DNA of 64,000 bases, from NCBI GenBank assembly GCA_963847375.1, contig CAWJZO010000001.1, positions 1,346,124 to 1,410,123 of the forward strand, read 5' to 3'. Shown here in pieces: positions 31,517-50,988 of the stretch. The translations under genes were made by a program, and so were the position numbers. How positions within the stretch are numbered: position 1 is the stretch's first letter; the number at the start of each line of letters is the position of its first letter. The stretch is from an uncultured Chloroflexia bacterium (GTDB lineage Bacteria; Chloroflexota; Limnocylindria; QHBO01). Below the pieces are notes generated by a model. That model did not search any database, had not been told where the DNA came from, and saw only the letters and a list, made by a program, of their open reading frames with translations.

Positions 31517-31618
31517 ACGGACGGTACGTATGTAACGCTACGTACCAACGGTATGCACGTTACCGCACTTCGCCGGGGAGCGGAGCGCAGGGCGGGCGCA
31601 TCACGGAGGCCGATCGAC

Positions 31619-31993: not shown

Positions 31994-32041
31994 GCCGGCC
32001 GAACGCGGCGCCCGACAGGGCAGCCGGCGATCTGCGTTCGA

Positions 32042-32434
32042 TCAGGCGTCCTGCGGCTCCTGAAAGGCGCGCACCTCGATGCGGCCACCCAGTGCCTTCG
32101 ACGCTTGCGTCGCCCACCGGACCGCGGCATCTTCGTCTGCGGCCTCGATCACCCAGAAGCCGCCGACGTACTCCGGCGCCTCAACGAACGGTCCGTCGAC
32201 CACCACGGGCGCGCCGCTGGTGGCGTCGACGGTCTTGGCCGACGATGGCGGGTGCAGGCCCCCGGCGAAGCGAAACGCCCCGGACTTGTGTAGATCGGCG
32301 TTGAACTCCTCCACGGCGGCCAGCGCGGAGCTCTCAGCCGGGCCTGGGGTTTTCACGTACGGCACCAGTGGGTAGGCTCTCGACGTGTCCGCGCGGAACG
32401 CCACGCCCAAGCCGTCCGCCAAACGACCTGCCAT
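32042..32434 (-). CDS. YCII-related (DGPF) domain protein
   Basis: FRFAGGLHPPSSAKTV...VVDGPFVEAPEYVGGFWVIEA...A..WA motifs. Start uncertain (ATG 32434 chosen), and it overlaps the divergent DUF2252 start. Confidence 0.6.
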   Translation of the reverse strand: MAGRLADGLGVAFRADTSRAYPLVPYVKTPGPAESSALAAVEEFNADLHKSGAFRFAGGLHPPSSAKTVDATSGAPVVVDGPFVEAPEYVGGFWVIEAADEDAAVRWATQASKALGGRIEVRAFQEPQDA

Positions 32435-33800: not shown

Positions 33801-33877
33801 TCCGTCAACCGGGGACTTCCGGCCCCAGCTGGAACCCGACCGGGAGCAGAGACGTCCGTGGGCTGCCATTGCGACGT

Positions 33878-33988
33878 GCGCCCGTAGCTCAGCGGATCAG
33901 AGCAGCTGAATTCGGACTATCCCGGCCGATGCGCTGTAGCCCGAGCGTGAGTGGGGGAGCGAAACGCGTCGAGTTATCCGCTCTCTTC
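33878..33988 (+). repeat. tRNA-half-like repeat, copy C (short form)
   Basis: GCGCCCGTAGCTCAGCGGATCAGAGCAGCTGAATTCGGACTATCCCGGCCGATGCGCTGTAGCCCGAGCGTGAGTGGGGGAGCGAAACGCGTCGAGTTATCCGCTCTCTTC. The upstream flank is unrelated to other copies. Confidence 0.9.
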
Positions 33989-34196
33989 AGACGTTGGAAA
34001 GAGCTCGAAGACGGGCCGGCCTTGGGCCGCCGCGGCTGGATCGTCGACTTGTCGAAGTTGCGGACGAACCACTCGCCGCACCACGAGCGGCGTGCGTGCG
34101 GCCGGGAGCGCCAGACGCCTCTCCCGACGCCGTGCATCGTCACAGACCTGATGTCTTCCCCCGGCTCAGCATGCCGTCGGTGCATCGGGCGCGTGG

Positions 34197-34991
34197 CTAC
34201 GTCTGATAGTTCGGGAGGACTCTCCCGTCCTTCACGTAGGTCAGCGCTTCGGTGACCTCGTAGGCGTGGACGGCGGAAACGAATTCGGGCAGCTTGCCTG
34301 AGAGCGTCGCGATCTCGCCGCTGCCGAGGAACGCTCGTAGGGCATCGGTACCGGTGAAGCCCAGGAGCAGTGAGGCGTGGAACCGCTGGTGGGTGGGGTT
34401 GTCGTGCGCGACGTTCGGCGTGTCCCAGAGTTGTTTGATCCAGGGCATGAAGGCCTGCGTTCGGAGTTCCCTCAGGACCCCGGTCTCGACGAGAGCGGGA
34501 ACAAGATCGTCGCTGAGGAGCCTCCGGAACGCACCGGTCCCGACGCCTTCCCGCCGGCGAAGGTAGATCAGGCTTCGCGCTCCGGCCTTCTCCCCGGGCC
34601 CGGCGACGTCGTACCAGCGCGCCGAGTTCGGTAGTCCCGCGTATAACACGGTGCGCCGGAACACGTTCACTTCATCCTTGTACGCGAGCCGGGTCTGCTT
34701 GCGGCCACGCAGCGGGGAGAGAGCGGACGTGAACGTTACCTCGGCGACCCCGTCGATCCGGCGCTCGGCGGGGATGACCGTCTCGACGCCGCTGATGGCC
34801 GGCCACAGCCCGGGATTGTTCTCCGCCAAGTGGATCTGGCGGTACTCCTCCATCCCCGGAGTGGCGGAGATGATCTTTGAGTGCGGGCCCTTCCAGTAGT
34901 CCATCCTCTGCTGACGGGGCTGATCCGTGCGCATCCACAGCAGGATCGATGAGACGAGGGGCTTCCTCGCGTACGGAGGTGTCGTAGCCAT
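34197..34991 (-). CDS. hypothetical protein, possibly tandem EthD-like domains
   Basis: 264 aa intact ORF. Family assignment tentative. Confidence 0.55.
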   Translation of the reverse strand: MATTPPYARKPLVSSILLWMRTDQPRQQRMDYWKGPHSKIISATPGMEEYRQIHLAENNPGLWPAISGVETVIPAERRIDGVAEVTFTSALSPLRGRKQTRLAYKDEVNVFRRTVLYAGLPNSARWYDVAGPGEKAGARSLIYLRRREGVGTGAFRRLLSDDLVPALVETGVLRELRTQAFMPWIKQLWDTPNVAHDNPTHQRFHASLLLGFTGTDALRAFLGSGEIATLSGKLPEFVSAVHAYEVTEALTYVKDGRVLPNYQT

Positions 34992-35019
34992 CTTGTTGCC
35001 TTCCTTGGCAGGGTGCGCT

Positions 35020-35208
35020 CAGCGCTCGAGGAACGCGACGGCGACTGGGGCGAACGTGTCGTAGTTCTGGAAAATGCCGCCGTGGCCGGAGTCAGGGTAA
35101 ATGATGAGCTCGGAGCCGAGGATGCGGCGGTGCAGGTCCTCAGAGAGCACGGAGGGCACCATTCGGTCGTTGTCGCCGTTGGCGATCAAGGTCGGCTGGG
35201 TGATCTTT
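35020..35208 (-). pseudogene. C-terminal remnant of an alpha/beta hydrolase gene
   Basis: Translates to KITQPTLIANGDNDRMVPSVLSEDLHRRILGSELIIYPDSGHGGIFQNYDTFAPVAVAFLER*. It is preceded by an in-frame stop at 35209-35211. No nucleophile-elbow region exists upstream. Confidence 0.6.
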
Positions 35209-35270
35209 CAGCGCCGCGGGCATCGTCCACGACCGCCCGCGGACAGGCTCGTGACCGATACGATGTCGGC

Positions 35271-35807
35271 ATGGCCACCCCGAAACGTGATCGGCCCCAG
35301 CTTCCGCCGGGGTACATGACTCGTACACCGAAGGGGATGCTCACCTGGGCTTCAGTGCGGCGCATGCTGCGCACCGCGCGATACCTCTGGATCTCGACCA
35401 CCGGCCCGGATGGAACGCCGCATCTCGTCGAGCAGTGGTGCGCCTGGGTCGACGACACTCTCTACTTCGAGGGAAGTGACCGGACGCGGTGGGCCCGCAA
35501 CCTCGCGAGTGACCCGCGGCTCGCATTCGGAGTACAGGTCGGCGATCGGGCCGCATATGGCCAGGCGGTGGTGGATGTCGCGCGCGGTCTCGAGCGCGCC
35601 GCCGCTGCTAGGATCGCGCGCCAGTACGCGGCGAAGTACGGAACGGACTTCGATTATCGGCCGCCCGTGGAGCAGTACGTGAACGGATCGGTTTTCCGGG
35701 CGCGCCCGACGAAGCTCATCGCCTTCGACGTGCGGCGGTTCAACACCTCGGCGACGCGTTTCACGTTCCAGCCGGCGGCGGGAGAGGAGAATGTGGACGA
35801 GCGCTAA
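35271..35807 (+). CDS. pyridoxamine 5'-phosphate oxidase family (PPOX-class) protein
   Basis: Start at ATG 35271 (MATPKRD...). LWISTTGPDGTPH...TLYFEGS motifs. The upstream part of the 264-aa track ORF is antisense to the hydrolase remnant. Confidence 0.7.
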   Translation: MATPKRDRPQLPPGYMTRTPKGMLTWASVRRMLRTARYLWISTTGPDGTPHLVEQWCAWVDDTLYFEGSDRTRWARNLASDPRLAFGVQVGDRAAYGQAVVDVARGLERAAAARIARQYAAKYGTDFDYRPPVEQYVNGSVFRARPTKLIAFDVRRFNTSATRFTFQPAAGEENVDER

Positions 35808-35887
35808 CCGGCCGCCGATCGCAGCCTGCGCGATGAAGGCGTCGAGACCGGTATCTCCGGCCCGTTCCACGTGCCGCGCCGAATACC

Positions 35888-37183
35888 TCAGCCGGCATCG
35901 CTTGGCGGCTGCCAGCCGCCCAGCGCCGACTCCACGGTGGCTGCGGCAGCGATGGCCACCTGGTCCTGCCACGGGGCGGCGACGAGCTGCACGCCGACCG
36001 GCATGTCGCCCGACGTGCCGGCGCGGACCACCGCGCACGGCCAGCCGGTCAGGCTGTGCGGCGTGGTATAGCGCCAGACCACGTCGCCATCGTGAAGCGG
36101 CGCGGGCCCGGGCGCAACCGGGGCGAGGATGAGGTCGAACCGCTCGAGCAGCGCGAGCATCGCGGTGCGGTATGCATCCCAATCACGGAGGACGGCGCGC
36201 ACCTCGGACGCGGTCATTTCGTCGCCGTATGAGTCCCAGACCCGCTCAGTCAGCTCGTGGCCGCCCGGCGGGGGGCTATCGTCCACCGCCGAGGCCCCTG
36301 CCTCACTCAGCGCCGATGCCGCATCGCGAAGGGCGCGCTCGATGCCGCTCTCGGGCGATGCCACGCCATCCGATCGGTGCAGCATCACCCGCAACCCGCG
36401 CAGCTCCACGCTGGCGGGGTCGCCAAGGGGGACGGGGACGGAGCCTCCATCCATCCCGTCGGGCCCGGCGAGGATCGGCAGCAGCGTGCCGAGATCCTCG
36501 ACGCGGCGCGCCATCGGTCCCGGCTGGGTGCGAGGGTCGCTCATCGGACCGAGCGCACCGTCCTCGTCGAGGACTCCTGTGATGGGAATGCGGCCGGCGG
36601 TCGGTTTCAACGTCGCGATGCCGCAGAAGTGAGCCGGCATCCGCAGGCTTCCGCCCGAGTCACTGCCGAGACCGCACGGTGACATGCCCGACGCGATCGC
36701 GGCCGCCTCTCCTCCACTGCTACCACCCGGTGACCTACGGGCGTCGTACGGATTGAGCGTCCGCCCATGGAGCTCATTGTCGGTCACGCCTCCGGACCCA
36801 CCTCGGGGGCAGTTCGTCTTGCCGAGCAGAATGGCCCCGGACGAGCGCATCCGCGCCACGACGGTCGCATCGCGCACGGGTCTGTTATCCGCGAGCTCGA
36901 CCATGCCGAGCGTCGTCGGCAGCGCTGCGGTCTCGATGATGTCCTTCGCCGTGAATGGCACGCCATGCAGTGGCCCGATGCGATCGCCCCGAGCCAATGC
37001 ACGATCGTGCGCCGCCGCCTGCTCGCGCGCATCGGCGGCCACCGCCACGATCGCCTTCAGCTTCGGGTTGAGCCGATCGATTGCCGCGAGGTGGGCGTCC
37101 ATCACCTCGACGGCGGTGATCGTTCCATCGCGAATGAGCTGTGCAAGGTCAGTGGCGGAACATTCGGTGAGCCGAGTGGCCAT
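35888..37183 (-). CDS. amidase (amidase-signature family)
   Basis: 431 aa. GGSSGGEAAAIASG signature and the GSDSGGSLRMPA motif. Confidence 0.9.
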   Translation of the reverse strand: MATRLTECSATDLAQLIRDGTITAVEVMDAHLAAIDRLNPKLKAIVAVAADAREQAAAHDRALARGDRIGPLHGVPFTAKDIIETAALPTTLGMVELADNRPVRDATVVARMRSSGAILLGKTNCPRGGSGGVTDNELHGRTLNPYDARRSPGGSSGGEAAAIASGMSPCGLGSDSGGSLRMPAHFCGIATLKPTAGRIPITGVLDEDGALGPMSDPRTQPGPMARRVEDLGTLLPILAGPDGMDGGSVPVPLGDPASVELRGLRVMLHRSDGVASPESGIERALRDAASALSEAGASAVDDSPPPGGHELTERVWDSYGDEMTASEVRAVLRDWDAYRTAMLALLERFDLILAPVAPGPAPLHDGDVVWRYTTPHSLTGWPCAVVRAGTSGDMPVGVQLVAAPWQDQVAIAAAATVESALGGWQPPSDAG

Positions 37184-37265
37184 CGATCAATCATGGCAGA
37201 GGGCCTCCAAGTGGCCAGGCGACCAAACCAGTCGACGTGGATGGGGTCGGGTACGATGCTGGTTA

Positions 37266-37385
37266 GCGCCCGTAGCTCAGTGGATCAGAGCAGCTGACTT
37301 CGGACTATCTCGGCCGATGCGCTGTAGCCCGAGCGTGGGCGCCGGAGCGTAGAGCGTCGAGTTATCGGCTGTCTCGCGCTCTTCC
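37266..37385 (+). repeat. tRNA-half-like repeat, copy D (short form, hybrid 3' tail)
   Basis: Canonical 39-nt head. CTCGG...CCGAG stem. G-rich patch reads GGGCGCC. Tail GTTATCGGCTGTCTCGCGCTCTTCC combines both tail variants. Confidence 0.9.
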
Positions 37386-37571
37386 TATGGATACCCTCCG
37401 CGCTGAGGGGCGGGGCGGATGGGCTTGGGCTGAGGCGGCATCTCAGGCCGCGTACGCATCTGAAGGTGCGTGTAGGGGTCGCATTGACATGGGGGCTCAC
37501 CATCGGCCGTGGGAAGCCTCGACCGCACCTGCCTGGTGCAAACCACCACCGGAGCGATTGGAGACCCAGAC

Positions 37572-38153
37572 ATGCTTGTGACCAAGGAGTCCTACCGCAT
37601 CGGCATCGCCGTTCTGCGCATCGGGGTGGGAGTCATCTTCCTCTGGGCCGGCATCGAGAAGCTGATGGCGCCGGAGCCATGGTCGGCGGCGGGCTTCCTC
37701 CAGTTCGGGACGGGCGGCAGCCTCGGCTGGCCATTCGTTTCCGGCGAAGTGGCCGAGGGCACGGTCTTCAACCCGACCCAGGCGTTCTGGGTCGGGATGG
37801 CGGCGAATGACAGCGCCATGAGCGTCATCAACCTCCTCGTGCCGTACGGGCAGGTCGGCATCGGGATCGGCCTCATCCTCGGCCTGCTCACGCGATTCAG
37901 CGCCGCGATGGGCACGTTGATGATGCTGTTCTTCTTCATCGCCGCCTGGGACTTCGAGTTCGGGATCGTGAACCAGCATCTGACCTACGCGCTGGTGACG
38001 GGATTCCTCGGCCTCATCGGCGCCGGCAACTACTACGGACTCGACCTCATGGTCGGTGAGTCCGCGCCGGCGTGGGTTCGTCGATGGTTGCTCTCCGGGA
38101 CGCCCGGGGCGGCCGCGGGGACGGACCCGTCCTTGCACCCGATGCCCGCGTGA
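37572..38153 (+). CDS. DoxX family membrane protein
   Basis: Start at ATG 37572. RIGVGVIFLWAGIEKL DoxX motif and four helices. Confidence 0.7.
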   Translation: MLVTKESYRIGIAVLRIGVGVIFLWAGIEKLMAPEPWSAAGFLQFGTGGSLGWPFVSGEVAEGTVFNPTQAFWVGMAANDSAMSVINLLVPYGQVGIGIGLILGLLTRFSAAMGTLMMLFFFIAAWDFEFGIVNQHLTYALVTGFLGLIGAGNYYGLDLMVGESAPAWVRRWLLSGTPGAAAGTDPSLHPMPA

Positions 38154-38195
38154 ACCTCGCTTGGCCACTCGCTGCCAGCTCCGCGATCGGCTGGA

Positions 38196-38612
38196 TTAGC
38201 GGCGTGGCCAAAGCCAGGCACGAAGGTTCAGAGCCAGCGCAAGGAGCGCGGCGGTACCCGCCACTCGCGGGATGCGCCTCGCCGCCCAGGCGGGTAGGAA
38301 CATGTCGGCGACCGATCCGCGTGCTGCGCCCAACTGCTCGGCCAGAGGGGTCAGTGGGCAAACCTGGTTGTTGCTGGCGTAGGCCGCGGTCTCGGCGACG
38401 ACCATAGCCCCTGCGATCGCGGTCCGACGCTGCGGTCGCCCGAGGAATCCGTCCCACAGTGCGAGGAGGATGGCGCCGGCGATCGACGCGAAGATCGCCG
38501 TGTGGAACGCCTTGATCGCTGTGAGCGCCTCGTCTCGACGATCCGCCGGGATGAGTCCGGCGAGGGGTGCGGTGATCGCGCCGCTCCAGGCGGGCTGGCG
38601 ATGGATCGGCAT
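38196..38612 (-). CDS. hypothetical membrane protein (DUF2784-like CPLTPL motif)
   Basis: 138 aa from ATG 38612. The rest of the 265-aa track ORF is not protein-like. Family tentative. Confidence 0.5.
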   Translation of the reverse strand: MPIHRQPAWSGAITAPLAGLIPADRRDEALTAIKAFHTAIFASIAGAILLALWDGFLGRPQRRTAIAGAMVVAETAAYASNNQVCPLTPLAEQLGAARGSVADMFLPAWAARRIPRVAGTAALLALALNLRAWLWPRR

Positions 38613-38614
38613 GA

Positions 38615-38857
38615 TCAGTGGCCGCCTTGGACGGCCGCGCCTCCGTCGCCGGCCTGGAACATGCCCAGCGCGCCGCGTCCGACGAAGTTGAAGGCGTGAG
38701 TCACGTTCGGGTACATGCCGTCCTCGTCGAAGCGCATCTCGACGATGGCGCCCTGTGCCGGTGCGAGGTCGACTGCCTGGCTGCCCCAGTTGCCTTCGTT
38801 GCCTTCCGTGAGGTGGACGCCCCTGCGCTCGAGTGGCGAGCTGGGCCTGGTACCCAA
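38615..38857 (-). pseudogene. C-terminal remnant of a cupredoxin / multicopper-oxidase-like gene
   Basis: ...AIVEMRFDEDGMYPNVTHAFNFVGRGALGMFQAGD resembles the last cupredoxin strand region. Its stop abuts the next start (TGATCATG). Only ~340 nt are available before the next gene, so the N-terminus is missing. Confidence 0.4.
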
Positions 38858-38953
38858 GGCGGGCCAAGGTCCGACATCGCACGGCCCGCCCGATGCGGCG
38901 TGACCCCGCCATGCGCGGCCTCGCCTGTTGACGCCGCATGGCGTCCCGATCTG

Positions 38954-39460
38954 CTACTCGGGGAAGTCGGTGGGGCGTTGCGCGTAGGCCCACATTGCGG
39001 TGGGCTCGGCGCGGAATAAGACGATGTCGTTGCCCCAGGAGTACGGGTCCGAGTCATACGCCGAGGTCCAGGTCGAGTGAATCTCGGCGTGGTCTGCATG
39101 GTCGCGCGTGATCCACTCCGCCCTGCCGTGGACGACGATGGCGACCGCGTCGCCGACCATGTGAACGAGACTGCAGGCCGGGTTGTGGCGCAGATTGGCG
39201 ACACGCGCTGCCGAGCTGTCGGTTGAGAGCGTGAAGCGCCCACGCACGAACACGGAGTCGAGCGGTGAGACGCGGGGCTCGCCGGCCGGTGTCACTGATC
39301 CGAACGCGACGTACTTGACGCCGTCGAGGTAGCGCACCACCTGACTGGCGCGCAGTCGCTTGTCAGGCGTCACGATGCTCGCCATGTGCGGGCTGATGTC
39401 GGCGAGAGTTTCGTCCATCAGTAGCTGCAGGAACTCGATGTCCGCGGCGGTCTCGCGCAT
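38954..39460 (-). CDS. pyridoxamine 5'-phosphate oxidase family protein
   Basis: 168 aa. YVAFGSVTPAGEPRVSPL...NLRHNPACSL motifs. Confidence 0.8.
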   Translation of the reverse strand: MRETAADIEFLQLLMDETLADISPHMASIVTPDKRLRASQVVRYLDGVKYVAFGSVTPAGEPRVSPLDSVFVRGRFTLSTDSSAARVANLRHNPACSLVHMVGDAVAIVVHGRAEWITRDHADHAEIHSTWTSAYDSDPYSWGNDIVLFRAEPTAMWAYAQRPTDFPE

Positions 39461-39553
39461 AACCGACTCACCATACTGCCGGTGCCAAGGGCTTAAGGAA
39501 GTCGCGTCGGACGAGGCGCGGACCGGGGTGCCGCCAGGTTAGGCGGTGCGGGA

Positions 39554-39719
39554 GCGCTGTGGCACAATGCCGGTCGAGTTATCCGCTCTGCTTGAGCGGG
39601 AAATCGGCGCCCGTAGCTCAGTGGATCAGAGCAGCTGACTTCGGACCATCTCGGCCGATGCGCTGTAGCACCGAGCCTGGGCGGGGGAGCGTTGAGGGTC
39701 GGGTTATCCGCTCTCTTCC
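39554..39719 (+). repeat. tRNA-half-like repeat, copy E (long form: leader, head, arm)
   Basis: Leader GCGCTGTGGCACAATGCCGGTCGAGTTATCCGCTC-TGCTT-GAGCGG. Head from 39607. Arm ends GGGTTATCCGCTCTCTTCC. Confidence 0.9.
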
Positions 39720-39808
39720 GGGTGCCAGACCGCGGCACCGATTGACATCGCATGGCCATCAGCTGTCCGCCGATTGGCTCGACGGCGCGCGTGAGCAGGG
39801 GAGCGGGT

Positions 39809-40550
39809 CTACGGCTCGAACTCGATCGAGGCGAGGATCGTCTCCATCTCGGTGACGTCCGCGGGCGCGGACGTGGGGCGATGGTTCGCCACCACGACGA
39901 AGCGGGCGCTGGTGACATCGACCGTGTAGATCCGCGCCACCGATTCATGGCCCGCGGGAACTTGTTGCCGCATCGGTCGAGCCAGTCTGGAGCCCGATCG
40001 GCGGATCGCACTGCTCGACGTCGAGATCGGCCGGGACGGTCACCTCGATGACCTTCCAAGATTGCCCGCCGATCGTGACGTCCATCGGCGACGCTACGTC
40101 CGGGCCCGGCAGTGCGCGCAGCCCGGCGGCGAGGTCGTCGGCGGTCGGCCCGATGTCCAGCGGATCGTTTGGACCGCACGGATGGGCAAAGAGCCGATCC
40201 ACGATCGAAACGCTCCAGCCGACCTCGCGCCCCGATTCGTTCGCATGCTTCGAAATGGTCTGCCTCCCGTTCTCAGCGACCCAGCCGGCGGGCATCGTGA
40301 ATGAGAAGGTCGCCGGCGTCCACGGGCCTTTGGCGATGAAGTACCGCCCAGGCTCGATCGGGCCGCTGCCGGGGATGTGACGAGCGCCTTCGACGGTGAT
40401 CGGCGTCGGGCGTGGCGTGTGGGTTGCGGTTGCGGCGGCGAGAGCAGAAGATGTCGGATCCCTCGAGGAGGGCGACGCGGGCGTGTCACTGGCGCAGCCC
40501 GCGACCACGATCAGCGCCATCGCCGCTGGAACGATCTTGCTCACGAGCAC
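39809..40550 (-). pseudogene. lipoprotein gene interrupted by two frame changes
   Basis: Lipobox (IVVAGC|AS) after GTG ~40550. The frame of 39945-40667 ends at ...CDPPIGLQ. The expected continuation WLDRCGNKFPR and then GHESVARIYTVDVTSARFVVVANH...ILASIEFEP* lie in the other two frames (stop 39809-39811). Confidence 0.5.
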
Positions 40551-40668
40551 TACGTGGTGCGTTCGCGCTGCAAGACGGGTGTTGGCAGGCCACTGTCGGG
40601 CCACCACACGTCGGGCGGGAGTGCATCGAGATGGTGCGGCCAGCGCGCATGGCGGCGGACCAGCCAAG

Positions 40669-41608
40669 TCACCGGCCCGCCTCGGGCTCCGGCTCCAGCG
40701 ACCCGACGTCGGGGGCGTAGTCCGTCGCTACGAGAAGGCCGTCCTCGATCAGCGATGCCCACGCATAGAAGCGGAAGGTGGGCTCCTGCGTGCGCAGGCC
40801 GACGTTGAACTCCGCAACGTCGCCGGTCGACCCGCGGGCGAAGGGACGCCACTCGCCTGGGAAGTACGTGTCGACGTAGCGATCGCCGACCAGGCCGTAT
40901 GGCGCCCCGGTCGCCGACATGGTTCGACCAATGTCGAGCTCCGTGCGCCATGCGCGGTGGCCTATCTCGACGGTCGCGGGCATGTTGTCCATCCCCACCC
41001 TCACGTCCGGCACGCCGTCGCCGTTCGTATCCAGGACAAGCCCATAGGCGATCCATCGCTCTTGGGGATCCGCGGCCGGCAAGGGGAGGTCCGCGGCGAG
41101 GTCGACGTCGACAGCCCAGATGATCCCGTGTCGGGTGTTACTCGGCGTGGGACCCGAAAGACGGATCTCCTCGATGTCGAGCCATGGGGGCGCGGCAAGG
41201 CCCATGTCGCCAACGGGATCCGTGTACTGGCCGAGGTCGGCGTCCACGAGCGGCACGACAACCACGGCTCCTGACGGCTCGGCGCGAATTGGCACTGGCC
41301 AGTCCTGATCGAGGCTCGATGGGGTCCAAGTCAGTGCATCGACTGTGCGAGGCGCCTCGTCCACAGCCCAGGGCAGCGACAGCAGCCCGGAGCCCGATGG
41401 CAATGGTGCCGCTGACCGGGAGCGACAGGACGAGCGCGGCGGCCGCCAGCAAGAAAAGGCCGCGCCGGGTGCCGAAGCGACCTACCGGTGCCGGCGCCGT
41501 TTCTGCGATCTCCGCTAGGCTGGCATGCAGCGTCGCCGGAGCCGCCTCCCGTTCGCCGATCTCGGCCTGGTACCACGCCTGCAGCCGGCGCTCGAGATCG
41601 TCAGTCAT
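40669..41608 (-). pseudogene. anti-sigma factor with extracytoplasmic domain, split by a 1-nt frame change near 41390
   Basis: ORF 41138-41608 gives the N-terminus plus TM helix (...LFLLAAAALVLSLPVSGTIAIG). ORF 40669-41403 continues as SGLLSLPWAVDE... in the adjacent frame. It could alternatively be two overlapping genes with a TTG start. Confidence 0.45.
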
Positions 41609-42240
41609 CGGATTGTTCTCTTGTCATCGGCCGCCTCGATTAACGCCGCCAGCCGCTTCAGCGCATAGTGCAGGCGGGAGTGGATGGTGCCCGGACGGAC
41701 CCCGAGCTGCCTCGCGATCTGGTCCACGCTCAGATCGCGGTAAAACCGCAGCGCTACCACGACCCGGTGGTCTGGCGTGAGCTGCCTCAGCGCGGCGCCC
41801 ATGAGGTCCCGGTCATCGGACTGGGCGAACGCGTCACCCGTGGCCGCCCAGTCGGGTGGCTGGTCCTGGGTGTGCCAGCGCGCGGCGCGGGCCAACCGGT
41901 TGCGGCAGGTATTGACCAGGATGCGGTGGAACCAGCCCTCGAACTTCGCGACGTCTCGCAAGGTCGAAAACTGCCGCCACGCCACCACGACCGCATCATG
42001 CGTGGCATCCTCGGCATCGGTAGGATCGTGGATGATTGCCCGCGCCAAGCGATAGCTCGCGTCCAGGTGACGTTCGACGAGCTCCACGAAAGCGGTCGCA
42101 CGGGCGCTCGATGCGTCCGCGCTCAGGGCCTCCGCTCGCCGCACACCATCCACCTCAGCTCGTTGCGTCACGATGACATGACAATCGAGCGCAGCAAAAC
42201 CTTCATTCGAGACCCCGTGGCCTTCGGTGCCTGGGAGCAC
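41605..42240 (-). CDS. ECF-type sigma-70 family RNA polymerase sigma factor
   Basis: Region 2 (DAEDATHDAVVVAWRQF) and region 4 (LSVDQIARQLGVRPGTIHSRLHYALKRL). The true start is probably internal to the 211-aa ORF. Its stop overlaps the anti-sigma start. Confidence 0.8.
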   Translation of the reverse strand: MLPGTEGHGVSNEGFAALDCHVIVTQRAEVDGVRRAEALSADASSARATAFVELVERHLDASYRLARAIIHDPTDAEDATHDAVVVAWRQFSTLRDVAKFEGWFHRILVNTCRNRLARAARWHTQDQPPDWAATGDAFAQSDDRDLMGAALRQLTPDHRVVVALRFYRDLSVDQIARQLGVRPGTIHSRLHYALKRLAALIEAADDKRTIR

Positions 42241-42249
42241 CGACCGCGA

Positions 42250-42548
42250 CCGGCAGCTTCTTTATGCGGACGCATCGGCGCACCGACTGCTGTCCGACCT
42301 CGCTCCGTTGCTCACCGGCCGCCCTCGGGTGGACGTTCCATTGATCGTCGCGGGTGAACTCAATGTGCTGTACGGCTAGGCCAACACCTACGCGGAGTTG
42401 GGTCTATCCCAAAAGCGCTTAGCCGCATTCGAGAAGGCCCTTACTCGTAAGAAGGCGGCGAAGCCAAAGGACCCGAGTGTCCGGCGGAGAATCACATTTG
42501 AAAACGAGCCCTACGACACTCGAATGGAAGACGAGCCACTGGACTAGG
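42250..42548 (+). pseudogene. decayed gene fragment with TPR-like segment and internal stop
   Basis: Frame reads ...VDVPLIVAGELNVLYG*ANTYAELGLSQKRLAAFEKALTRKKAAKPKD...*. Visibly lower GC than the surroundings. No intact ORF on the track. Confidence 0.3.
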
Positions 42549-42658
42549 AGTGAGCCGTTCTGGGTATCACACTAAGTGTGGTCAGTGTGAAGCTTCGGAG
42601 GGCAGGCCCGATCCCGGCAGCTCTGCCGACTCTCTTCGCACGCTCAGGCACTGAGTAA

Positions 42659-42822
42659 GCGCTGTGGCACAATGCGGGGACGAGTTATCCGCTCAGTTTG
42701 AGCGTGAATCGGCGCCCGTAGCTCAGTGGATCAGAGCAGCTGACTTCGGACTATCCCGGCCGATGCGCTGTAGCCCGAGTGGGCCGGGGAGCGTAGAGCG
42801 TCGAGTTATCTGCTGTCTTCCT
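42659..42822 (+). repeat. tRNA-half-like repeat, copy F (long form)
   Basis: Leader GCGCTGTGGCACAATGCGGGGACGAGTTATCCGCTC-AGTTT-GAGCG. Head from 42712. Tail GTTATCTGCTGTCTTCC. Confidence 0.9.
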
Positions 42823-42829
42823 AAGCGTC

Positions 42830-43135
42830 TCGAGACTTACCGGTCGGCAGCGCTGGGAGGCGCCACGTCGACCCGGATGGCCGCATGACGCGCCCGATCT
42901 CGGCGAGGCCTGTCGCGGAGTCGGCCAGTGATGGACGGAGAAGGTGCTGACAACGACGTCGAACGAAGCATCGGGGAGTGGCAGCGGCGACGTCGCCACC
43001 GACGAACGACCGGACACCTGGCATCGCCTGCCCGGATCGCATTGGCCTCAGCGCGCACAACCATCACCAGGTCCAGGTCGAGGCCGGTGACCTCGAGACC
43101 CTGCTCGGCCAGCAGCACCGGTCCGTCCGTCGGGC
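42830..43135 (-). pseudogene. class I SAM-dependent methyltransferase remnant (both ends missing, at least 3 frame changes)
   Basis: Pieces are spread over three frames: VLLAEQGLEVTGLDLD...RAEANAIRAG, then VRSFVGGDVAA, then LPLPDASFDVVVSTFSVHHWP, then GLAEIGRVMRPSGS. It abuts the right edge of copy F. Confidence 0.55.
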
Positions 43136-44117
43136 TAGCTCCCGGAACCCCACTCGACATCGATTTCGTTGGCAGGTGTGTCGGTCACCTGCCACCGATC
43201 TGAGCCGTCCGGCCGGCTTATGATGAGTTCCGCGGCGAAGGCGCTGGTCGAGCGCGAGTAGGCAATCCATTCTCCGTCGGGCGACCACACTGCGCCGAAG
43301 AGGACGTATTCCGCCTCTCCGATCGTGCCGATCACGCTGCCATCAAGACTGATGACCATGATCGTGCCACCCGCTGATGTCAGCAGCGACGCGCCGTCTG
43401 GCGAGAAGCGTCCCGCATCCTCGAAGGCCAGCTCGCCGATGGCCTGCGGTTCGCCGCTGCCTGAGGCGTCCACGAAGAAGAGCGGGCCGGCTTCTTCATC
43501 GTCGGTGCGTTTGAAGACGAGCTGGCTGCCGTCGGGTGAGTAGTCGCCAGGCTGGTCGGACATCCCGTCTGGGGCCGCGCTAACCCGCAGAAGCTCGCCG
43601 CCATCCGAGGCGCGCACCGTGGAGATCCCGGCGCGTGTGGGGTCGGTGTCTCCCACGCCTCTCAGGCCAGTCGCGTGTCGTCGGGCGACCAGACCGTGCA
43701 GACGGCGTTCAGCGTCTCGTCAGGGATCTCGAGGATCCGGTCCACCGTCCCATCCGGTCCGATGATGGCAGTCCCGACCCGATCATCGTCGAGGATCGTC
43801 ATGACTGCGATCTGGCTGCCATCCTGCGACCAGCGGCCACCGCCCTCGGGGCAAGGGAGCGGAAGGTCCGATTCCCCGCTCCCATCCGGCCTGATGAGAT
43901 GGGTGCTGATGAACGTGTGTGTGCTCTCGTCGGACCGCGAGAACAAGAGCCATCCGCCCGGCAACCCGAAAGGTGGTGCTGCTGGGGCAGTCGGCGTAGG
44001 CCCCACTGTGGGGGACGCGATGGGTCTGCTCGCCGTGGATTCGCTGCTCGTCGCAGCGCCGCAAGCTGTGAATACGGCCACCCAGACGGCGAGGAGCGCT
44101 CGGGGCACGAGCCTCAC
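43135..44117 (-). pseudogene. TolB-like beta-propeller lipoprotein split by a frame change near 43660
   Basis: ORF 43662-44117 has the lipobox (VFTAC|G) and PD40-like repeats ending WSPDDTRLA*. ORF 43135-43656 continues (GDTDPTRAGISTVRASDGGELLRVS...YSPDGSQ..FSPDG..WSPDGEWIAY) in another frame. Confidence 0.6.
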
Positions 44118-44842
44118 TCGTTTGCCTCCTTCAATCAGGTCGCAATAGCGCTCGCGGGCAGCGACGACAGGCTACGCCTGAGATGCAACCGTGCGGCTGA
44201 TCCGTCGGTGGCTCATTTGCATCGGGCAGAAGAGATCACACGCTCCCGGACGTGAGTTTGAGCGTGCGGATAGCCCGATAACCACACGGCGCTCGCTCTC
44301 CGGAATCGTTCTCAGTCGGGCGGCACTCCATCGCTTACGGGGCGCGGAATGTCAACAAGGGCTCTAACGGGTTGAGCTAGCCGCCCGCGGTCGAGAGTGA
44401 CGATCCTATAAGGGCACGCGTGCCTGCGCCATCGGCGCGGAGGCGTTCAGCGGCGCTGCACGCGAGACTCCGTAATTACCTTTCTGGGGCGGACAGCCGA
44501 TCGTACTGAGGCCACGCGGATCCGGCTCGGTATACTTCAGGCTCCCCGGCAAGCCCGCACCGGACCCGATGGCGCAGGCATGAAGTTCCGCAAGGACGGG
44601 CTGGATTTGGCGGGTCGTTCATCCGGATCGAAGTCGTAGGCAACTGCTGCCTGTCGGGCTGATTCGCGCGCTCCGGACGCATCAAGGGCGCCGCAGGGCC
44701 TCCGGATTCAAGGGCCTGGGTGCAAGCGCTGGGGAGGTCGAGGACGACACGCTGGTGGTCACCGGCACGGCCCAGTCGTTACAACCTCACAGGGCATCGA
44801 GGTCGAGGTTGACACCCCGACCCTCAGTGAGATTTCGATGGG

Positions 44843-45008
44843 GCGCTGTGGCACAATGGCCGGCGAGTTATCCGCTCTGTTGAGCGTGAATCGTGCGCCC
44901 GTAGCTCAGTGGATCAGAGCAGCTGACTTCGGAGTATCTGGGCCCAAGCGCTGTAGCCCGAGCGCGGGATGGCGGAGCGTAGAGCGTCGAGTTATCCGCT
45001 CTCTTTCG
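44843..45008 (+). repeat. tRNA-half-like repeat, copy G (long form)
   Basis: Leader with TGGCACAAT (44849-44857). Perfect 15-bp direct repeat CGAGTTATCCGCTCT at 44864-44878 and 44988-45002. Hairpin CGCTC-TGTT-GAGCG. Head from 44895. Confidence 0.9.
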
Positions 45009-45065
45009 GGACTCGGAATTGCGGACGCGGTAGACCCCTCAGATCCCGTATCGCATGATGGCGCC

Positions 45066-47705
45066 GTGCCTGAGAACCTACCGCTAGGCACCGTCACCTT
45101 CCTGTTCACGGACATTGAGGGTTCCACGCATCTGGTCCAGGCATTGGGCCCGGACTACAGCACGGCTCTCGAGCGCCACGCTGCCATCGTGCGGCGGGCG
45201 CTTGCCGAACACGATGGGGTTGAAGTCAGTACTGAAGGTGATGCCTTCTTCGCCGCCTTCCAGTCAGCGCCGAAGGCTGTTGCGGCGGCTGTGGCCGTTC
45301 AGCAGAGGCTGGCAGACGCGAACTGGCCGAATGGCCACATCGTAAGGGTGCGAATTGGCCTGCATACGGGCGAGGGCAGGCTGGGCGGGGACAACTACAT
45401 TGGCCTCGATGTCCACCGCGCCGCGCGGATTGCGGCCGCCGGCCATGGTGGCCAAGTCCTGCTCTCGGCCGCGAGCCGCGTCCTCGTCGAAGATGCGCTG
45501 CCTGATGGTGTGACGGTGCGTGACCTGGGCACTCATCGGCTCAAAGACCTCGACCAGCCTGAGCACCTTGCGCAGCTCGTTATCACCGACCTCGACCAGG
45601 AATTCCCCGCAATCCGGACGCTTGAGATACCGAGCAATCTGCCGGCGGAGCTAACCAGCTTTGTCGGGCGCAAGCGCGAGGTCGATGAGGCATCGGACCT
45701 GTTGGCGAGCAACCGTCTCCTGACATTGACGGGTCCCGGCGGCACTGGGAAGACACGCCTCGCGCTTCACATCGCTGCCGGGATGCGCCCGGCATACCGT
45801 GATGGCGTCTTTTTCGTCGGTCTCGCACCACTCACCGATCCAGCGTTGGTGGGTCCCACGGTGGCGCATAGCCTGGGCCTGATCGAGGAGCCAGACCGCC
45901 CGATCCTCGACCTTCTCAAAGAGCACCTTGGGCCGCGAGAGATTCTGCTTCTCCTGGACAATTTCGAACACCTGCTCGAGGCAGCGGTGGTCATCGAGGA
46001 CCTCCTTGCTGCCGCACCGCGCCTGAAAGTCCTGGCTACCAGCCGAAGCAGCCTGAAGATATACGGCGAGCAGGAGTTCGCGGTCCCACCCCTCAAACTG
46101 CCGGACCCGAGCGCCGTAGGCGAATTGGAGCTGACATCGCGGTACGAGGCAGTGGCACTTTTCGTCGAGCGGGCTCGCGCGGTGAAGCCGGACTTCCGTA
46201 TCACCGATGAGAACGTTGGAGCCGTGGCGGAGATCTGCGTTCGGCTCGACGGGCTGCCACTCGCCATCGAGTTGGTCGCGAGCCGCATCCGGCTGCAGGA
46301 ACCTGGCGAGATTCTGGCCCGCTTCGAAGAGCAGCTGCCCCTGCTGATTAGTGGGGCGCGCAACCTGCCTGAACGGCAACGCACACTTCGTGGCGCGATC
46401 GAGTGGAGCTTTGAGCTTCTCGATGCGCCCCAGAAGTTGCTGTTCTGTCGTCTCGCCATCTTCTCAGGCGGCTGCACCCTCGACGCCGCGGAAGCCATTT
46501 GCAACCCCGACGGCGAGCTCCGGATCGCTACGTTGGAGGCGATGGCTGACCTGGTAGACCAGAGCCTCGTCCGGCGGACGGCGCAAGCAGGCGAGACGCG
46601 ATTCGGCATGCTGGAGACCATCCGCGAGTACGGTCGGGAGCAACTAGAGGCTGACGGCAGCATCCTTCAAGTCGGTCAAAGCCACCTCACCTACTTCAGG
46701 GAGCTGGGCCAGTCAGGGGAGCAGCATTTTCTCGGACCCGACCAGATCAGCTGGCTGGACCGTTTCGAGCGCGAGCACGACAACGTGCGGGCCGCTCTCA
46801 GTCGCGCGGTCGATACGAGCCAGACGGACGAGGCGCTGCTGCTGGCGGCTGCCGTGTGGCGGTTCTGGTTCCAGCGCGGCTACCTGCGCGAGGGTCGTGT
46901 CTGGCTGGAGCAGCTCATCGGCCTGCAGCCCAACGCCGTTTCCTCCGCGCGTGCCAAGGCGTGCATTGCATTGGGCGGCCTGACGTTCTGGCTTGGCGAT
47001 GCGGACGCGACCGAGTCGGCCTACGAAACGGCATTGCGCCTCTACGGCCAACTGGGGGACCGTGAGGCCGAGGCCGAGACGCTGTACAACCTGGCCTTCG
47101 TCCCCGTCATGCGCGGCGACGTCGATGGCGCTCGCGAACGGTTTCTGAACAGCCTTGCTATTGCGCGCGACATCGGCCGTGACGATCTCGTCGCAAAGAG
47201 CCAACTCCCACTCGGGATTTCCTTGAGAGAGGCCGGGGATCCGCTGTCGGCGGTGACGCTATTGCAGGAGGCGGTGACCTTCTTCCGCGAAACGAACGAT
47301 CGCTTCCAGCTTGCGTGGGGCCTCGGCGAACTAGCAACGACGCACCATGCAATGGGGCAGAGATCGGCAGCCTGGACGGGCTACCTGGAGGCACTTGGCC
47401 TCTTCTCCGACGCCAGGAATCTGCCCGGAATCGGTGCAACCCTGGACCTGGGGTCGGTACTTGCATCCTGGGAAGGCCGACACACGGCAGCCGTCCGCCT
47501 CACCGCCGCCGCAGACAAGCTGAGGGAAACGACAGGTGCCACATCCCCGCTGATGTTCACGCCGCAGCGGGATGTGGAAGATTTCGCCCGTCGAACGATC
47601 GGGGACGAGGCCGTCAAGAGCGCTATCGCCGAGGGCCGTCGCATGACGCTCGACGAGGCGATTGAGTACTCGCGTGCCATCGCGGACGGCTCAGCCAACG
47701 GTTGA
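45066..47705 (+). CDS. adenylate/guanylate cyclase domain - AAA/STAND ATPase - TPR protein
   Basis: GTVTFLFTDIEGST cyclase motif, P-loop GPGGTGKTRLA, C-terminal TPR repeats. Start set at GTG 45066, because the track ORF start at 44838 reads through repeat G. Confidence 0.85.
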   Translation: MPENLPLGTVTFLFTDIEGSTHLVQALGPDYSTALERHAAIVRRALAEHDGVEVSTEGDAFFAAFQSAPKAVAAAVAVQQRLADANWPNGHIVRVRIGLHTGEGRLGGDNYIGLDVHRAARIAAAGHGGQVLLSAASRVLVEDALPDGVTVRDLGTHRLKDLDQPEHLAQLVITDLDQEFPAIRTLEIPSNLPAELTSFVGRKREVDEASDLLASNRLLTLTGPGGTGKTRLALHIAAGMRPAYRDGVFFVGLAPLTDPALVGPTVAHSLGLIEEPDRPILDLLKEHLGPREILLLLDNFEHLLEAAVVIEDLLAAAPRLKVLATSRSSLKIYGEQEFAVPPLKLPDPSAVGELELTSRYEAVALFVERARAVKPDFRITDENVGAVAEICVRLDGLPLAIELVASRIRLQEPGEILARFEEQLPLLISGARNLPERQRTLRGAIEWSFELLDAPQKLLFCRLAIFSGGCTLDAAEAICNPDGELRIATLEAMADLVDQSLVRRTAQAGETRFGMLETIREYGREQLEADGSILQVGQSHLTYFRELGQSGEQHFLGPDQISWLDRFEREHDNVRAALSRAVDTSQTDEALLLAAAVWRFWFQRGYLREGRVWLEQLIGLQPNAVSSARAKACIALGGLTFWLGDADATESAYETALRLYGQLGDREAEAETLYNLAFVPVMRGDVDGARERFLNSLAIARDIGRDDLVAKSQLPLGISLREAGDPLSAVTLLQEAVTFFRETNDRFQLAWGLGELATTHHAMGQRSAAWTGYLEALGLFSDARNLPGIGATLDLGSVLASWEGRHTAAVRLTAAADKLRETTGATSPLMFTPQRDVEDFARRTIGDEAVKSAIAEGRRMTLDEAIEYSRAIADGSANG

Positions 47706-47792
47706 GACCACTGGCCGCGCTCGAGTGCAGGGATCGTCCGCGTGGCCGCCAACGAGGCCAACGAGCCCGTTGCCGATTAGACTTGGCGCGAC

Positions 47793-50968: not shown

Positions 50969-50988
50969 CTAACGGCCGTCTCGGAACG

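What the first reader, a model, noticed from the sequence alone, without database searches (positions are those of the whole stretch)
39554..39719. Long-form copies carry a conserved leader with a promoter-like box, a hairpin and a 14-15 bp direct repeat of the arm terminus
**What is seen.**
- Copies A, E, F and G have about 52 conserved nt upstream of the head: GCGCTGTGGCACAATG-N5-6-CGAGTTATCCGCTC-loop-GAGCG-TGAATCG.
- TGGCACAAT (39560-39568, 42665-42673, 44849-44857) fits an extended -10 (TGnTAnAAT-like, with A-11 and T-7 present).
- The hairpin CGCTC/GAGCG keeps its stem while the loop varies: TGCTT, AGTTT, TGTT, TGTTC.
- CGAGTTATCCGCTCT in the leader is repeated at the end of the arm. The match is perfect over 15 bp in G (44864-44878 and 44988-45002) and has one mismatch in E.
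- The leader looks like a shortened copy of the arm. GCGCTGTGGC...CGAGTTATCCGCTCT compares with GCGCTGTAGC...CGAGTTATCCGCTCT.
- Short-form copies C, D, H and I instead begin within 2 nt of head position 1, next to unrelated DNA.

**Interpretation.**
- Two junction classes (leader-head-arm versus flank-head-arm) are what P-O-P' and B-O-P' junctions look like in tandem site-specific integrations.
- Alternatively, the leader is the promoter and 5' leader of a tRNA-like transcript.
Basis: partly seen in the sequence, partly recalled or inferred. Interest (0 to 1): 0.65.

Follow-up and report, generated by a model that had tools for sequence, protein, structure and literature searches.

The report
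Cassette array at a tRNA-Arg gene
The "leader" is the promoter and 5' leader of a tRNA-Arg(TCG) gene, and each repeat copy is a displaced promoter plus 5' half of that tRNA, left behind as small gene cassettes with no integrase piled up at the tRNA gene, which is a variant of a known process that turns out to be common in soil Limnocylindria (Chloroflexota).

Summary

**What the repeat is**
- The "head" is the first 39 nt of tRNA-Arg(TCG), ending at the last base of the anticodon loop.
- It is followed by a conserved arm of about 75 bp.
- The window holds nine co-oriented copies between 24.0 and 60.7 kb.

**Evidence from related DNA**
- About 230 further copies occur in Limnocylindria/Chloroflexota MAGs and soil metagenomes.
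- All 62 multi-copy loci are co-oriented. The median spacing between copies is 2.8 kb.
- Where the end is captured, the array ends in an intact tRNA-Arg(TCG) gene carrying the same leader.
- Flank comparisons show that the leader and head travel with the upstream cargo, and the arm travels with the downstream cargo.
- One pair of loci is an occupied versus empty site, broken exactly after the anticodon loop.

**Reading**
- Each unit is arm + cargo + promoter/leader + 5' half.
- The leader is the tRNA promoter (TGnCACAAT, ending 36-39 nt upstream of the head), followed by a hairpin leader.
- The 15-mer is a repeated motif specific to the element.
- Short forms carry their own -10 box 5-16 nt upstream of the head.

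**Limits**
- No recombinase was found in or beside the cassettes, so the integrase step is inferred.
- Breakpoints are scattered, which implies that homologous exchange also acts.

Verdict: a new variant of tandem accretion at tRNA genes, of moderate interest.

The parts
24041..24164 (+). Copy A. Long leader 24041-24092, with a degenerate box GCGCTGACGCACAATG, the 15-mer at 24062-24076 and the hairpin at 24071-24085. Head 24093-24132, with 2 substitutions and a 1-nt insertion. Arm truncated after about 32 nt.
26930..26993 (+). Copy B. Arm-only fragment (GCGCTGTAGC at 26936-26945, degenerate 15-mer at 26975-26989); the head is lost. The syntenic place in L027 has an intact head+arm.
33878..33990 (+). 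Copy C, short form. Head 33878-33916 (2 mismatches) and arm with the 15-mer at 33970-33984. No clear -10 box upstream.
37252..37375 (+). Copy D, short form. TACGAT at 37252-37257, ending 8 nt before the head. Head 37266-37304. Arm with the 15-mer at 37358-37372.
   Evidence: the arm and downstream flank are shared with L020 while the upstream flank is not
39537..39719 (+). Copy E, the finding. Upstream motif copy 39537-39548. Leader 39554-39606, with TGGCACAAT at 39560-39568, the 15-mer at 39575-39589 and the hairpin at 39584-39598. Head 39607-39645. Arm 39646-39719, with GCGCTGTAGC at 39660-39669 and the 15-mer at 39700-39714.
   Evidence: the upstream flank and leader are 97% identical to L020, and the arm falls to background identity
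42659..42822 (+). Copy F, long form. Leader 42659-42711, with the box at 42665-42673, the 15-mer at 42681-42695 and the hairpin at 42690-42704. Head 42712-42750. Arm with the 15-mer at 42802-42816.
   Evidence: syntenic copies in L033 and L037
44843..45008 (+). Copy G, long form. Leader 44843-44894, with the box at 44849-44857, the 15-mer at 44864-44878 and the hairpin at 44873-44886. Head 44895-44933. Arm with a perfect second 15-mer at 44988-45002.
47778..47903 (+). Copy H, short form. TAGACT at 47778-47783. Head 47793-47831 (1 mismatch). Arm with the 15-mer at 47885-47899.
60526..60656 (+). Copy I, short form. TAGAAT at 60526-60531. Head 60544-60582 (1 mismatch). Arm with the 15-mer at 60636-60650.
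24165..60543 (.). Eight cargo segments between the copies, of 2.2 to 12.8 kb. They hold ordinary accessory genes in both orientations: chromate transporter, hydrolase, MFS-cNMP, DUF2252, amidase, DoxX, PNPOx, ECF sigma, PD40, cyclase-STAND, a TRAP transporter operon and others. No recombinase.
   Evidence: Pfam scans; spacings

Best explanation
**What the region is**
- The region from 24 to 61 kb is a tandem array of small gene cassettes with no integrase, accreted on the 5' side of a tRNA-Arg(TCG) gene. In this window the gene itself lies beyond the right end.
- A cassette consists of a conserved arm of about 75 bp, the cargo, a promoter/leader, and the first 39 nt of the tRNA.

**How it forms**
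- When a circular cassette recombines with the tRNA gene at the anticodon loop, its own promoter, leader and 5' half are joined to the resident 3' half. The tRNA therefore stays intact.
- The resident promoter, leader and 5' half are pushed upstream and are now fused to the incoming arm.
- Repetition leaves a row of co-oriented promoter-leader-head-arm junctions, which are the copies seen here.

**What the features in the finding are**
- The leader is the left arm of the attachment site and, at the same time, the tRNA gene's own expression signal.
- It holds an extended -10 box (TGnCACAAT, ending 36-39 nt before tRNA position 1) and a transcribed leader with a short hairpin.
- Short forms are cassettes whose left arm carries only a -10 box, 5-16 nt before position 1.
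- The 15-mer occurs in the leader, at the arm end, and in degenerate form at about -70. Together with the GCGCTGTRGC and GAGCG repeats, it is most likely a set of repeated protein-binding sites, comparable to the arm-type sites of an attP.

**Shown and inferred**
- Shown: the architecture, the intact tRNA at the array end, the co-orientation, the co-inheritance pattern, and one occupied/empty pair.
- Inferred: that a tyrosine integrase acting in trans makes the crossover, that the boxes fire, and what binds the repeats.
- Homologous exchange within the 165-250 bp repeat also shuffles cassettes.
For: **Head and tRNA**
- The head equals tRNA-Arg(TCG) positions 1-38/39. Identity ends right after the loop CTTCGGA: the tRNA continues TCAGC and the copies continue CTATC.
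- An intact tRNA-Arg(TCG) lies downstream, on the same strand, of the copies in 8 genome loci and 9 metagenome loci.
- 13 of the tRNAs carry the long hairpin leader. Others, such as L011, carry a short -10 form.

**Array organisation**
- 147 loci hold 234 copies. All 62 multi-copy loci are co-oriented and none is mixed.
- The median spacing is 2.77 kb.

**Co-inheritance**
- In 27 pairs that share only the upstream flank, leader identity is 0.92 and arm identity is 0.83. Background arm identity is 0.82.
- In 19 pairs that share only the downstream flank, leader identity is 0.56 (background 0.55) and arm identity is 0.89.
- Window against L020: copy D shares its arm and downstream flank only. 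Copy E shares its upstream flank, leader and head only.
- L025 5321-6984 matches L026+L035 10694-12340 at 93.8%, ending exactly at the end of the head. L025 then continues with the tRNA 3' half. The other genome continues with an arm, 2.7 kb of cargo, a leader, a head and then the 3' half.

**Crossover point**
- A canonical displaced 3' fragment at the same tRNA starts at GACTTCGGA (L162 2591-2545). The anticodon loop is therefore a used crossover point at this gene.

**Promoter**
- In long leaders the hexamer at the fixed position is CACAAT 84 times, TAGAAT 11 times and CAGAAT 4 times.
- 41 of 64 short forms have TANNNT ending 5-16 nt before the head, against 2 of 64 in each control window.

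**Hairpin and 15-mer**
- The fifth pair of the hairpin is C-G in 103, T-A in 14, and mismatched in 6 of 123 unique leaders.
- The 15-mer has 286 matches in 750 kb: 88 at the leader position, 195 at the arm end, 3 elsewhere, and none on the other strand.

**Not an RNA in its own right**
- Head+arm shows no covarying pairs in 60 copies. Its folding z-score is +1.0.
Against: - No integrase was found in the window, in 263 cargo ORFs from related loci, or by phmmer.
- The only integrases near arrays lie downstream of the tRNA. They belong to canonical 3'-side elements and are degenerate.
- Breakpoints are not confined to the anticodon loop. They scatter from about -40 to +95, and the linker between hairpin and head is often not co-inherited with the upstream flank. 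This fits homologous exchange or gene conversion as well as, or in addition to, a single site-specific crossover.
- No circular or phage-borne copy was found.
- No canonical -35/-10 promoter is called in the region, and there are no expression data.
- The intact tRNA of the window's own array is not inside the window.
Confidence: 0.72

Rival explanations
1. The architecture is the same, but arrays grow and shuffle mainly by homologous recombination. The 165-250 bp leader-head-arm repeat serves as portable homology. Circles excised by repeat-to-repeat recombination, or incoming linear DNA, re-enter by RecA-dependent crossover anywhere within the repeat or within the leader and head of the tRNA gene. 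A site-specific event is needed only once, at the origin of the head-arm fusion.
For: - Breakpoints between genomes are spread over the whole conserved element, from -40 to +95.
- The linker and the arm body are often uncoupled from both flanks.
- No recombinase gene is associated with the cassettes.
- The head is essentially identical in all copies.
Against: - Several blocks are conserved among unrelated cassettes while the spacers between them vary. These are the 15-mer, present three times and in a fixed orientation, GCGCTGTRGC and GAGCG. That pattern points to sequence-specific recognition rather than mere homology.
- The tRNA and arm diverge exactly at the 3' edge of the anticodon loop, the classic integrase crossover point. 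A canonical element uses the same point at this gene.
- Several breakpoints lie next to the short 15-mer, where too little identity exists for efficient homologous recombination.
Confidence: 0.2
2. The true crossover site is the 15-mer/hairpin (CGAGTTATCCGCTC-loop-GAGCG), not the anticodon loop. Cassettes are bounded by this site in the leader and by its half copy at the arm end. The block from the right half of the hairpin through the head and the arm is then part of a composite recombination site, loosely like an integron attC.
For: - In pairs that share the upstream flank, identity holds through the -10 box, the 15-mer and the loop (0.96 and 0.88). It drops to background in the linker (0.66 against 0.69).
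- In pairs that share the downstream flank, identity is high only from the arm-end 15-mer onward (0.91 against a background of 0.68).
- The arm end reproduces the left half of the hairpin plus its loop. In some copies it carries a whole hairpin.
Against: - It does not explain why a truncated tRNA ending exactly at the anticodon loop sits in every junction.
- Short-form junctions have no 15-mer in their left arm, yet behave as junctions. The pairs L135/L058 and L137/L138 break between the head and +54.
- Near-identical pairs L046/L107 and L078/L134 keep the linker with the upstream flank, or the whole arm with the downstream flank.
- The segments measured are short, and the pairs are few and not independent.
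Confidence: 0.12
3. The copies are genes for a family of tRNA-like small RNAs, each with its own promoter, and the arm is a functional 3' domain.
For: - Every copy keeps a plausible -10 box.
- The head and several arm blocks are strongly conserved across about 230 copies.
Against: - No tRNA or Rfam family is called for the copies.
- The fold is no more stable than shuffled sequence (z = +1.0).
- RNAalifold on 60 copies gives -10 kcal/mol, and none of the 18 predicted pairs has a compensatory change.
- The copies occur only in co-oriented rows upstream of the matching intact tRNA.
- The leader and the arm are inherited with different flanks.
Confidence: 0.04

Closest known systems
Genomic islands integrated in tRNA/tmRNA genes that leave a displaced 5' gene fragment (Islander database, PMC4383910)
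   Same: - An intact tRNA gene with a co-oriented displaced fragment upstream.
- The crossover is centred on the anticodon loop. Islander assigns 2083 of 3919 islands to this anticodon-centred class.
- The element restores the gene from its own copy of the missing part.
   Different: - Only 159 of 3919 Islander islands leave a 5' fragment, and only 4 are tandems of three or more.
- Islander requires an integrase in each island.
- Here there are up to at least 9 junctions in a row, units of about 2-4 kb, and no integrase in any unit. The restoring part includes the promoter.
Tandem ssrA genomic islands of Dehalococcoides (Chloroflexota), including islands without an integration module (PMC3146451), and the concept of cis-mobilizable elements with tandem accretion (Pavlovic et al. 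2004, as cited there)
   Same: - Rows of islands separated by direct repeats of a small-RNA gene fragment, in the same phylum.
- Many islands lack recombination genes and are presumed to be mobilised in cis or in trans.
   Different: - There the repeat is 20 bp of the ssrA 3' end, the islands lie downstream of the gene, and a serine recombinase module is present in about half of them.
- Here the repeat is 165-250 bp, lies on the 5' side of a tRNA, carries a promoter, and no unit has a recombinase.
Tycheposon-containing islands of Prochlorococcus (bioRxiv 10.1101/2020.12.28.424599)
   Same: - Successive integrations at one tRNA push older elements into the island.
- Partial tRNAs are scattered through the island.
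- The cargo consists of niche-adaptive genes.
   Different: - Tycheposons carry their own tyrosine recombinase and replication genes, with about 1-2 elements per genome.
- Here the units are minimal, cargo-only and numerous.
Integron cassette arrays
   Same: - Small, promoter-dependent, recombinase-less cassettes in one array.
- A conserved recombination site of 100-250 bp lies between cassettes.
- The resident promoter can read into the next cassette: copies A, D and G are followed by + strand genes.
   Different: - No IntI-type integrase or attI lies beside the array.
- The sites are direct repeats that contain a tRNA half, not imperfect palindromes.
- Cargo genes lie in both orientations, and often several sit in one unit.

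Membership tests
tRNA gene (Rfam RF00005 / ARAGORN) | A full cloverleaf with acceptor, D, anticodon and T arms | tested here: not met
   ARAGORN and Rfam call only tRNA-His at 1833-1908 in the window. The copies stop at the anticodon loop. The intact relatives in other loci are called tRNA-Arg(TCG).
tDNA-integrated genomic island (Islander criteria) | An intact tDNA plus a co-oriented displaced end fragment of the same tDNA, with a 5' fragment lying upstream | tested here: met
   Met in related loci. All 62 multi-copy loci are co-oriented. In the window itself the intact tRNA is not included.
tDNA-integrated genomic island (Islander criteria) | An integrase gene inside each island | tested here: not met
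   No Phage_integrase or other recombinase in the window ORFs, among 113 plus 150 cargo ORFs, or by phmmer.
tDNA-integrated genomic island (Islander criteria) | The element supplies the displaced part, so the tDNA is regenerated | tested here: met
   In the L025 versus L026+L035 comparison, the inserted unit ends in its own leader and head, joined to the 3' half.
Cis-mobilizable element / tandem accretion | A segment flanked by att-type repeats, without its own recombination or transfer genes | tested here: met
Cis-mobilizable element / tandem accretion | Excision or mobilisation by the integrase of a neighbouring or related element | not testable with these tools
   Only degenerate integrases of 3'-side elements were found at the same tRNA. 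No circular forms were detected.
Integron | An IntI integrase with attI next to the array, and attC sites that are imperfect palindromes | tested here: not met
   The genes next to the tRNA end differ between genomes: LigD, ACT, ferric reductase, CHRD. Head+arm shows no hairpin-type structure.
Sigma-70-type promoter | A -10 hexamer with A at position 2 and T at position 6 at a fixed distance from the transcribed gene, with a TG extension or a -35 element | tested here: inconclusive
   The -10 hexamer is positionally conserved and functionally degenerate: CACAAT, TAGAAT, CAGAAT, or in short forms TACGAT, TAGACT, TAGAAT. TGn precedes it in 86 of 124 long leaders. No -35/-10 pair was called. There are no transcript data.

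The most novel reading that the evidence does not exclude
Limnocylindria may maintain a dedicated cassette platform, analogous to an integron, at tRNA-Arg(TCG).
- Minimal, cargo-only cassettes would be captured and shuffled by a recombinase encoded elsewhere, acting in trans and not yet identified.
- Each cassette has an attachment site of about 250 bp, made of a promoter, a hairpin leader, the tRNA 5' half and an arm with repeated 15-mers.
- That recombinase would recognise the repeated 15-mer, GCGCTGTRGC and GAGCG motifs.
- The displaced tRNA promoters would double as expression signals for neighbouring cargo.
Probability: 0.3. Interest if true: 0.75.

Novelty: new variant of a known kind. 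Interest (0 to 1): 0.5.

Why it matters
- It accounts for a conspicuous repeat family in an abundant but uncultured class of soil bacteria. It also shows where much of their flexible gene content (cyclases, ECF sigma factors, hydrolases, transporters) is stored and exchanged.
- It is an unusually clean natural example of 5'-side tRNA integration, in which the mobile unit must bring a promoter.
- The cassettes are stripped down to cargo plus attachment site. If a trans-acting recombinase exists, this would be a second, independent solution to what integrons do, and a compact site/recombinase pair of possible use in engineering.
- Practically, these repeats break metagenome assemblies: many contigs end in the element. 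The truncated copies could also be mis-annotated as pseudo-tRNAs.

Tried and rejected
**Structured RNA or riboswitch-like leader.** Rejected.
- No Rfam hit.
- Folding z-score of +1.0.
- No covariation in alignments of 8 or 60 sequences.
- No consistent orientation of the downstream genes.

**MITE or dispersed repeat.** Rejected. The copies are strictly co-oriented, always lie upstream of tRNA-Arg(TCG), and their two halves are inherited with different flanks.

**Search for an integrase**
- Pfam scans of 40 window ORFs and of 113 plus 150 ORFs from related loci found none.
- phmmer with two integrase queries against all six-frame ORFs found only L025:7080 and L154:1407. Both lie downstream of the tRNA.
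- Relatives of the L154 integrase sit convergent to tRNA-Pro(GGG) or tRNA-Ala(GGC), beside small prophage-like elements. That family therefore belongs to canonical 3'-side elements and cannot be assigned to the cassettes.
- P0004 turned out to be a read-through pseudogene that includes antisense tRNA fragments.

**Phage or plasmid-borne attP.** Three scans of viral contigs found no copy of the element.

**Source contig of the window.** An exact-protein look-up failed, and no fetched locus is identical to the window.

**Literature.** Williams 2002 (PMC100330) is not held in the library.

Full report
**1.

- The window is high-GC DNA (about 64-75% GC in 1-kb windows, about 63-71% across the array).
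- Between 24.0 and 60.7 kb it carries nine + strand copies of one element.
- The 39-nt head GCGCCCGTAGCTCAGTGGATCAGAGCAGCTGACTTCGGA matches seven times with at most 3 mismatches, against none expected.
- A profile search adds a degenerate copy A (24093-24164) and an arm-only fragment B (26930-26993).
- The 15-mer recurs at the end of each arm. It is perfect in G and has one mismatch in E.
- Of the 12 window matches to the 15-mer at up to 2 mismatches (0.10 expected), 11 lie in copies.
- In 750 kb of related DNA, 283 of 286 matches lie at the leader position or the arm end, and none lies on the other strand.

**2. What the head is**

- It is the 5' half of tRNA-Arg(TCG): acceptor strand, D arm, the 5' strand of the anticodon stem and the complete anticodon loop CTTCGGA.
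- ARAGORN and Rfam do not call the copies as tRNAs.
- A pattern scan of one genome per species found 28 loci with true copies. Most records are labelled Chloroflexota, Chloroflexia or Candidatus Limnocylindria.
- A few short contigs sit in bins labelled as other phyla. I take these to be binning errors; this is an inference.
- In 8 genome loci and 9 metagenome loci an intact tRNA-Arg(TCG) lies downstream of the copies on the same strand.
- Its first 38-39 nt are the head. Identity ends immediately after the loop: the tRNA continues TCAGCAGG and the copies continue CTATCCCGG.
- It is preceded by the same leader as in the finding. In some genomes it is instead preceded by a short form with a TAGAAT-type box.

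**3. Array organisation**

- 147 loci hold 234 copies. All 62 loci with more than one copy are co-oriented.
- Adjacent 8-kb blocks join into arrays of 3, 4 and 6 remnants followed by the tRNA.
- Spacing has a median of 2.77 kb and an interquartile range of 1.9-3.9 kb. The window's spacings are 2.2-12.8 kb.
- Cargo consists of ordinary accessory genes in both orientations. The recurrent families are adenylate/guanylate cyclases, ECF sigma factors, hydrolases, EamA, TetR, response regulators, PD40 and Kelch proteins.

**4. Which part belongs to which cassette**

- Window against L020:
  - Copy D shares its arm and downstream genes, but nothing upstream of head position 1.
  - Copy E shares its upstream gene, leader and head at 97%. 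Its arm falls to the background similarity of any two arms (about 88%), and the downstream DNA is unrelated.
- Across all copies:
  - 27 pairs share only the upstream flank. Their leader identity is 0.92 and their arm identity is 0.83, against a background of 0.82.
  - 19 pairs share only the downstream flank. Their leader identity is 0.56 (background 0.55) and their arm identity is 0.89.
- The unit is therefore arm + cargo + leader + head, and each junction is a hybrid of two units.
- A direct occupied/empty pair exists:
  - L025 5321-6984 equals L026+L035 10694-12340 at 93.8%, ending at the last base of the head.
  - L025 then has the tRNA 3' half.
  - The other genome has an arm, 2.7 kb of cargo, a new leader and head, and only then the 3' half.

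**5. Mechanism**

- The simplest reading is repeated integration at the anticodon loop by elements whose attachment site carries the promoter and 5' half of the tRNA. This is the mirror image of the usual 3'-side arrangement.
- Islander records this configuration as a minority: 159 of 3919 islands leave a 5' fragment, 2083 have an anticodon-centred site, and only 4 are tandems of three or more (PMC4383910).
- At the same tRNA, canonical 3'-side elements occur. Their displaced 3' fragment begins at GACTTCGGA (L162), so the loop is a real crossover point here.
- Two caveats remain.
  - First, no recombinase is associated with the cassettes. The integrases found next to arrays (L025, L154/L159, L161-163) lie downstream of the tRNA. 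They belong to a family that otherwise sits convergent to tRNA-Pro or tRNA-Ala beside small prophage-like elements. The copies next to tRNA-Arg arrays (P0001, P0004) are degenerate.
  - Second, finer analysis shows breakpoints scattered from about -40 to +95. The hairpin-to-head linker is often uncoupled from the upstream flank, and the arm body from the downstream flank.
- The most recent pairs (L135/L058, L137/L138, L046/L107, L078/L134) break between the head and +54, as the loop model predicts.
- The older pairs imply additional homologous exchange or gene conversion inside the repeat. A second hot spot at the 15-mer/hairpin is also possible.

**6. The features in the finding**

- **Promoter.**
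  - In 124 unique long leaders, the hexamer ending 36-39 nt before the head is CACAAT (84), TAGAAT (11), CAGAAT (4) or a similar sequence. TGn precedes it in 86.
  - In 64 short or other forms, 41 have TANNNT (TACGAT, TAGACT, TAGAAT, TACAAT) ending 5-16 nt before the head, against 2 of 64 in each of two control windows.
  - This positional conservation with sequence turnover, in front of a real tRNA gene, is good comparative evidence for a -10 element.
  - The consensus scan finds no -35/-10 pair, and no transcript data exist.
- **Hairpin.**
  - The stem is kept while the loop varies (TGTTT 40, TCTTT 35, and others).
  - The fifth pair is C-G in 103, T-A in 14, and mismatched in 6 of 123 leaders.
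  - This is one covarying position. It is compatible either with a leader RNA hairpin or with a symmetric protein site.
- **Direct repeat.**
  - A third, degenerate 15-mer lies at about -70 in many long leaders.
  - Some arm ends carry a complete second hairpin.
  - Conserved blocks separated by variable spacers, with no RNA covariation, look like protein-binding sites of an attachment site. This is an inference.

**7. Comparison and novelty**

- Tandem accretion at tRNA and tmRNA genes, including units without integrases, is known. Examples are:
  - the Dehalococcoides ssrA islands, 15 of which lack an integration module (PMC3146451);
  - cis-mobilizable elements;
  - tycheposon islands (10.1101/2020.12.28.424599).
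- This case differs in several ways:
  - accretion is on the 5' side, with a promoter-bearing site;
  - the unit is minimal and always lacks a recombinase;
  - the conserved site is long (165-250 bp);
  - there are many junctions per array;
  - the element is prevalent in an uncultured soil class.
- I rate it a new variant of a known kind, of moderate interest.
- An integron-like, trans-mobilised cassette platform is not excluded. I put its probability at about 0.3.

Noticed in passing
L154 1141-2310 (the same place as L159 9723-10900): Inside one array, an intact leader plus tRNA-Arg(TCG) is followed 90 nt later by a convergent tyrosine integrase truncated at its N terminus. Immediately after that comes another long leader+head+arm. 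A fragment of the integrase N-terminal domain lies on the opposite strand. This may be an element that carries a whole tRNA-Arg next to its integrase and integrated into a remnant junction.
   Followed up: partly
L162 1736-2710 (also L161 and L163): The called 324-aa 'integrase' P0004 is a read-through pseudogene. It contains the antisense of a second tRNA-Arg loop+3' half (2591-2545) and, near 1840-1890, the 3' part of another tRNA-like sequence. This marks canonical 3'-side islands with toxin-antitoxin cargo stacked at the same tRNA.
   Followed up: partly
window 26930-26993: An arm-only fragment (copy B) follows the hydrolase gene. The syntenic site in L027 (1915-2027) has an intact head+arm, so the head was deleted in the window's lineage. 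Copies A and B, at the end presumed to be farthest from the tRNA, are the most decayed.
   Followed up: yes
L024 844-957; L081 4651-4700; L025 293-332: In these copies the head is joined to non-canonical or internally deleted arms. The L024 copy still ends in CGAGTTATCTGCTCT. In L081 the head runs into a low-GC ORF of unknown function.
   Followed up: no
L030 507-886: Two complete copies lie only 269 nt apart. This is a unit with essentially no cargo.
   Followed up: no
window 44843-47705; 24041-25440; 37252-38153: In copies G, A and D the displaced tRNA promoter points into a + strand cargo gene that starts 50-130 nt after the arm (cyclase-STAND, chromate transporter, DoxX). It could drive that gene's expression. 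The other copies face genes on the - strand.
   Followed up: no
metagenome loci L039-L158: Many contigs begin or end within or next to the element. The repeat evidently breaks short-read assemblies of these genomes.
   Followed up: no
window 1833-1908: tRNA-His(GTG) is the only tRNA called in the window. It is unrelated to the array.
   Followed up: yes
L005, L023, L024, L032: Short contigs that carry typical copies sit in MAGs labelled Acidimicrobiales, Thermoanaerobaculia and Gemmatimonadaceae. These are probably binning errors rather than spread of the element to other phyla.
   Followed up: no
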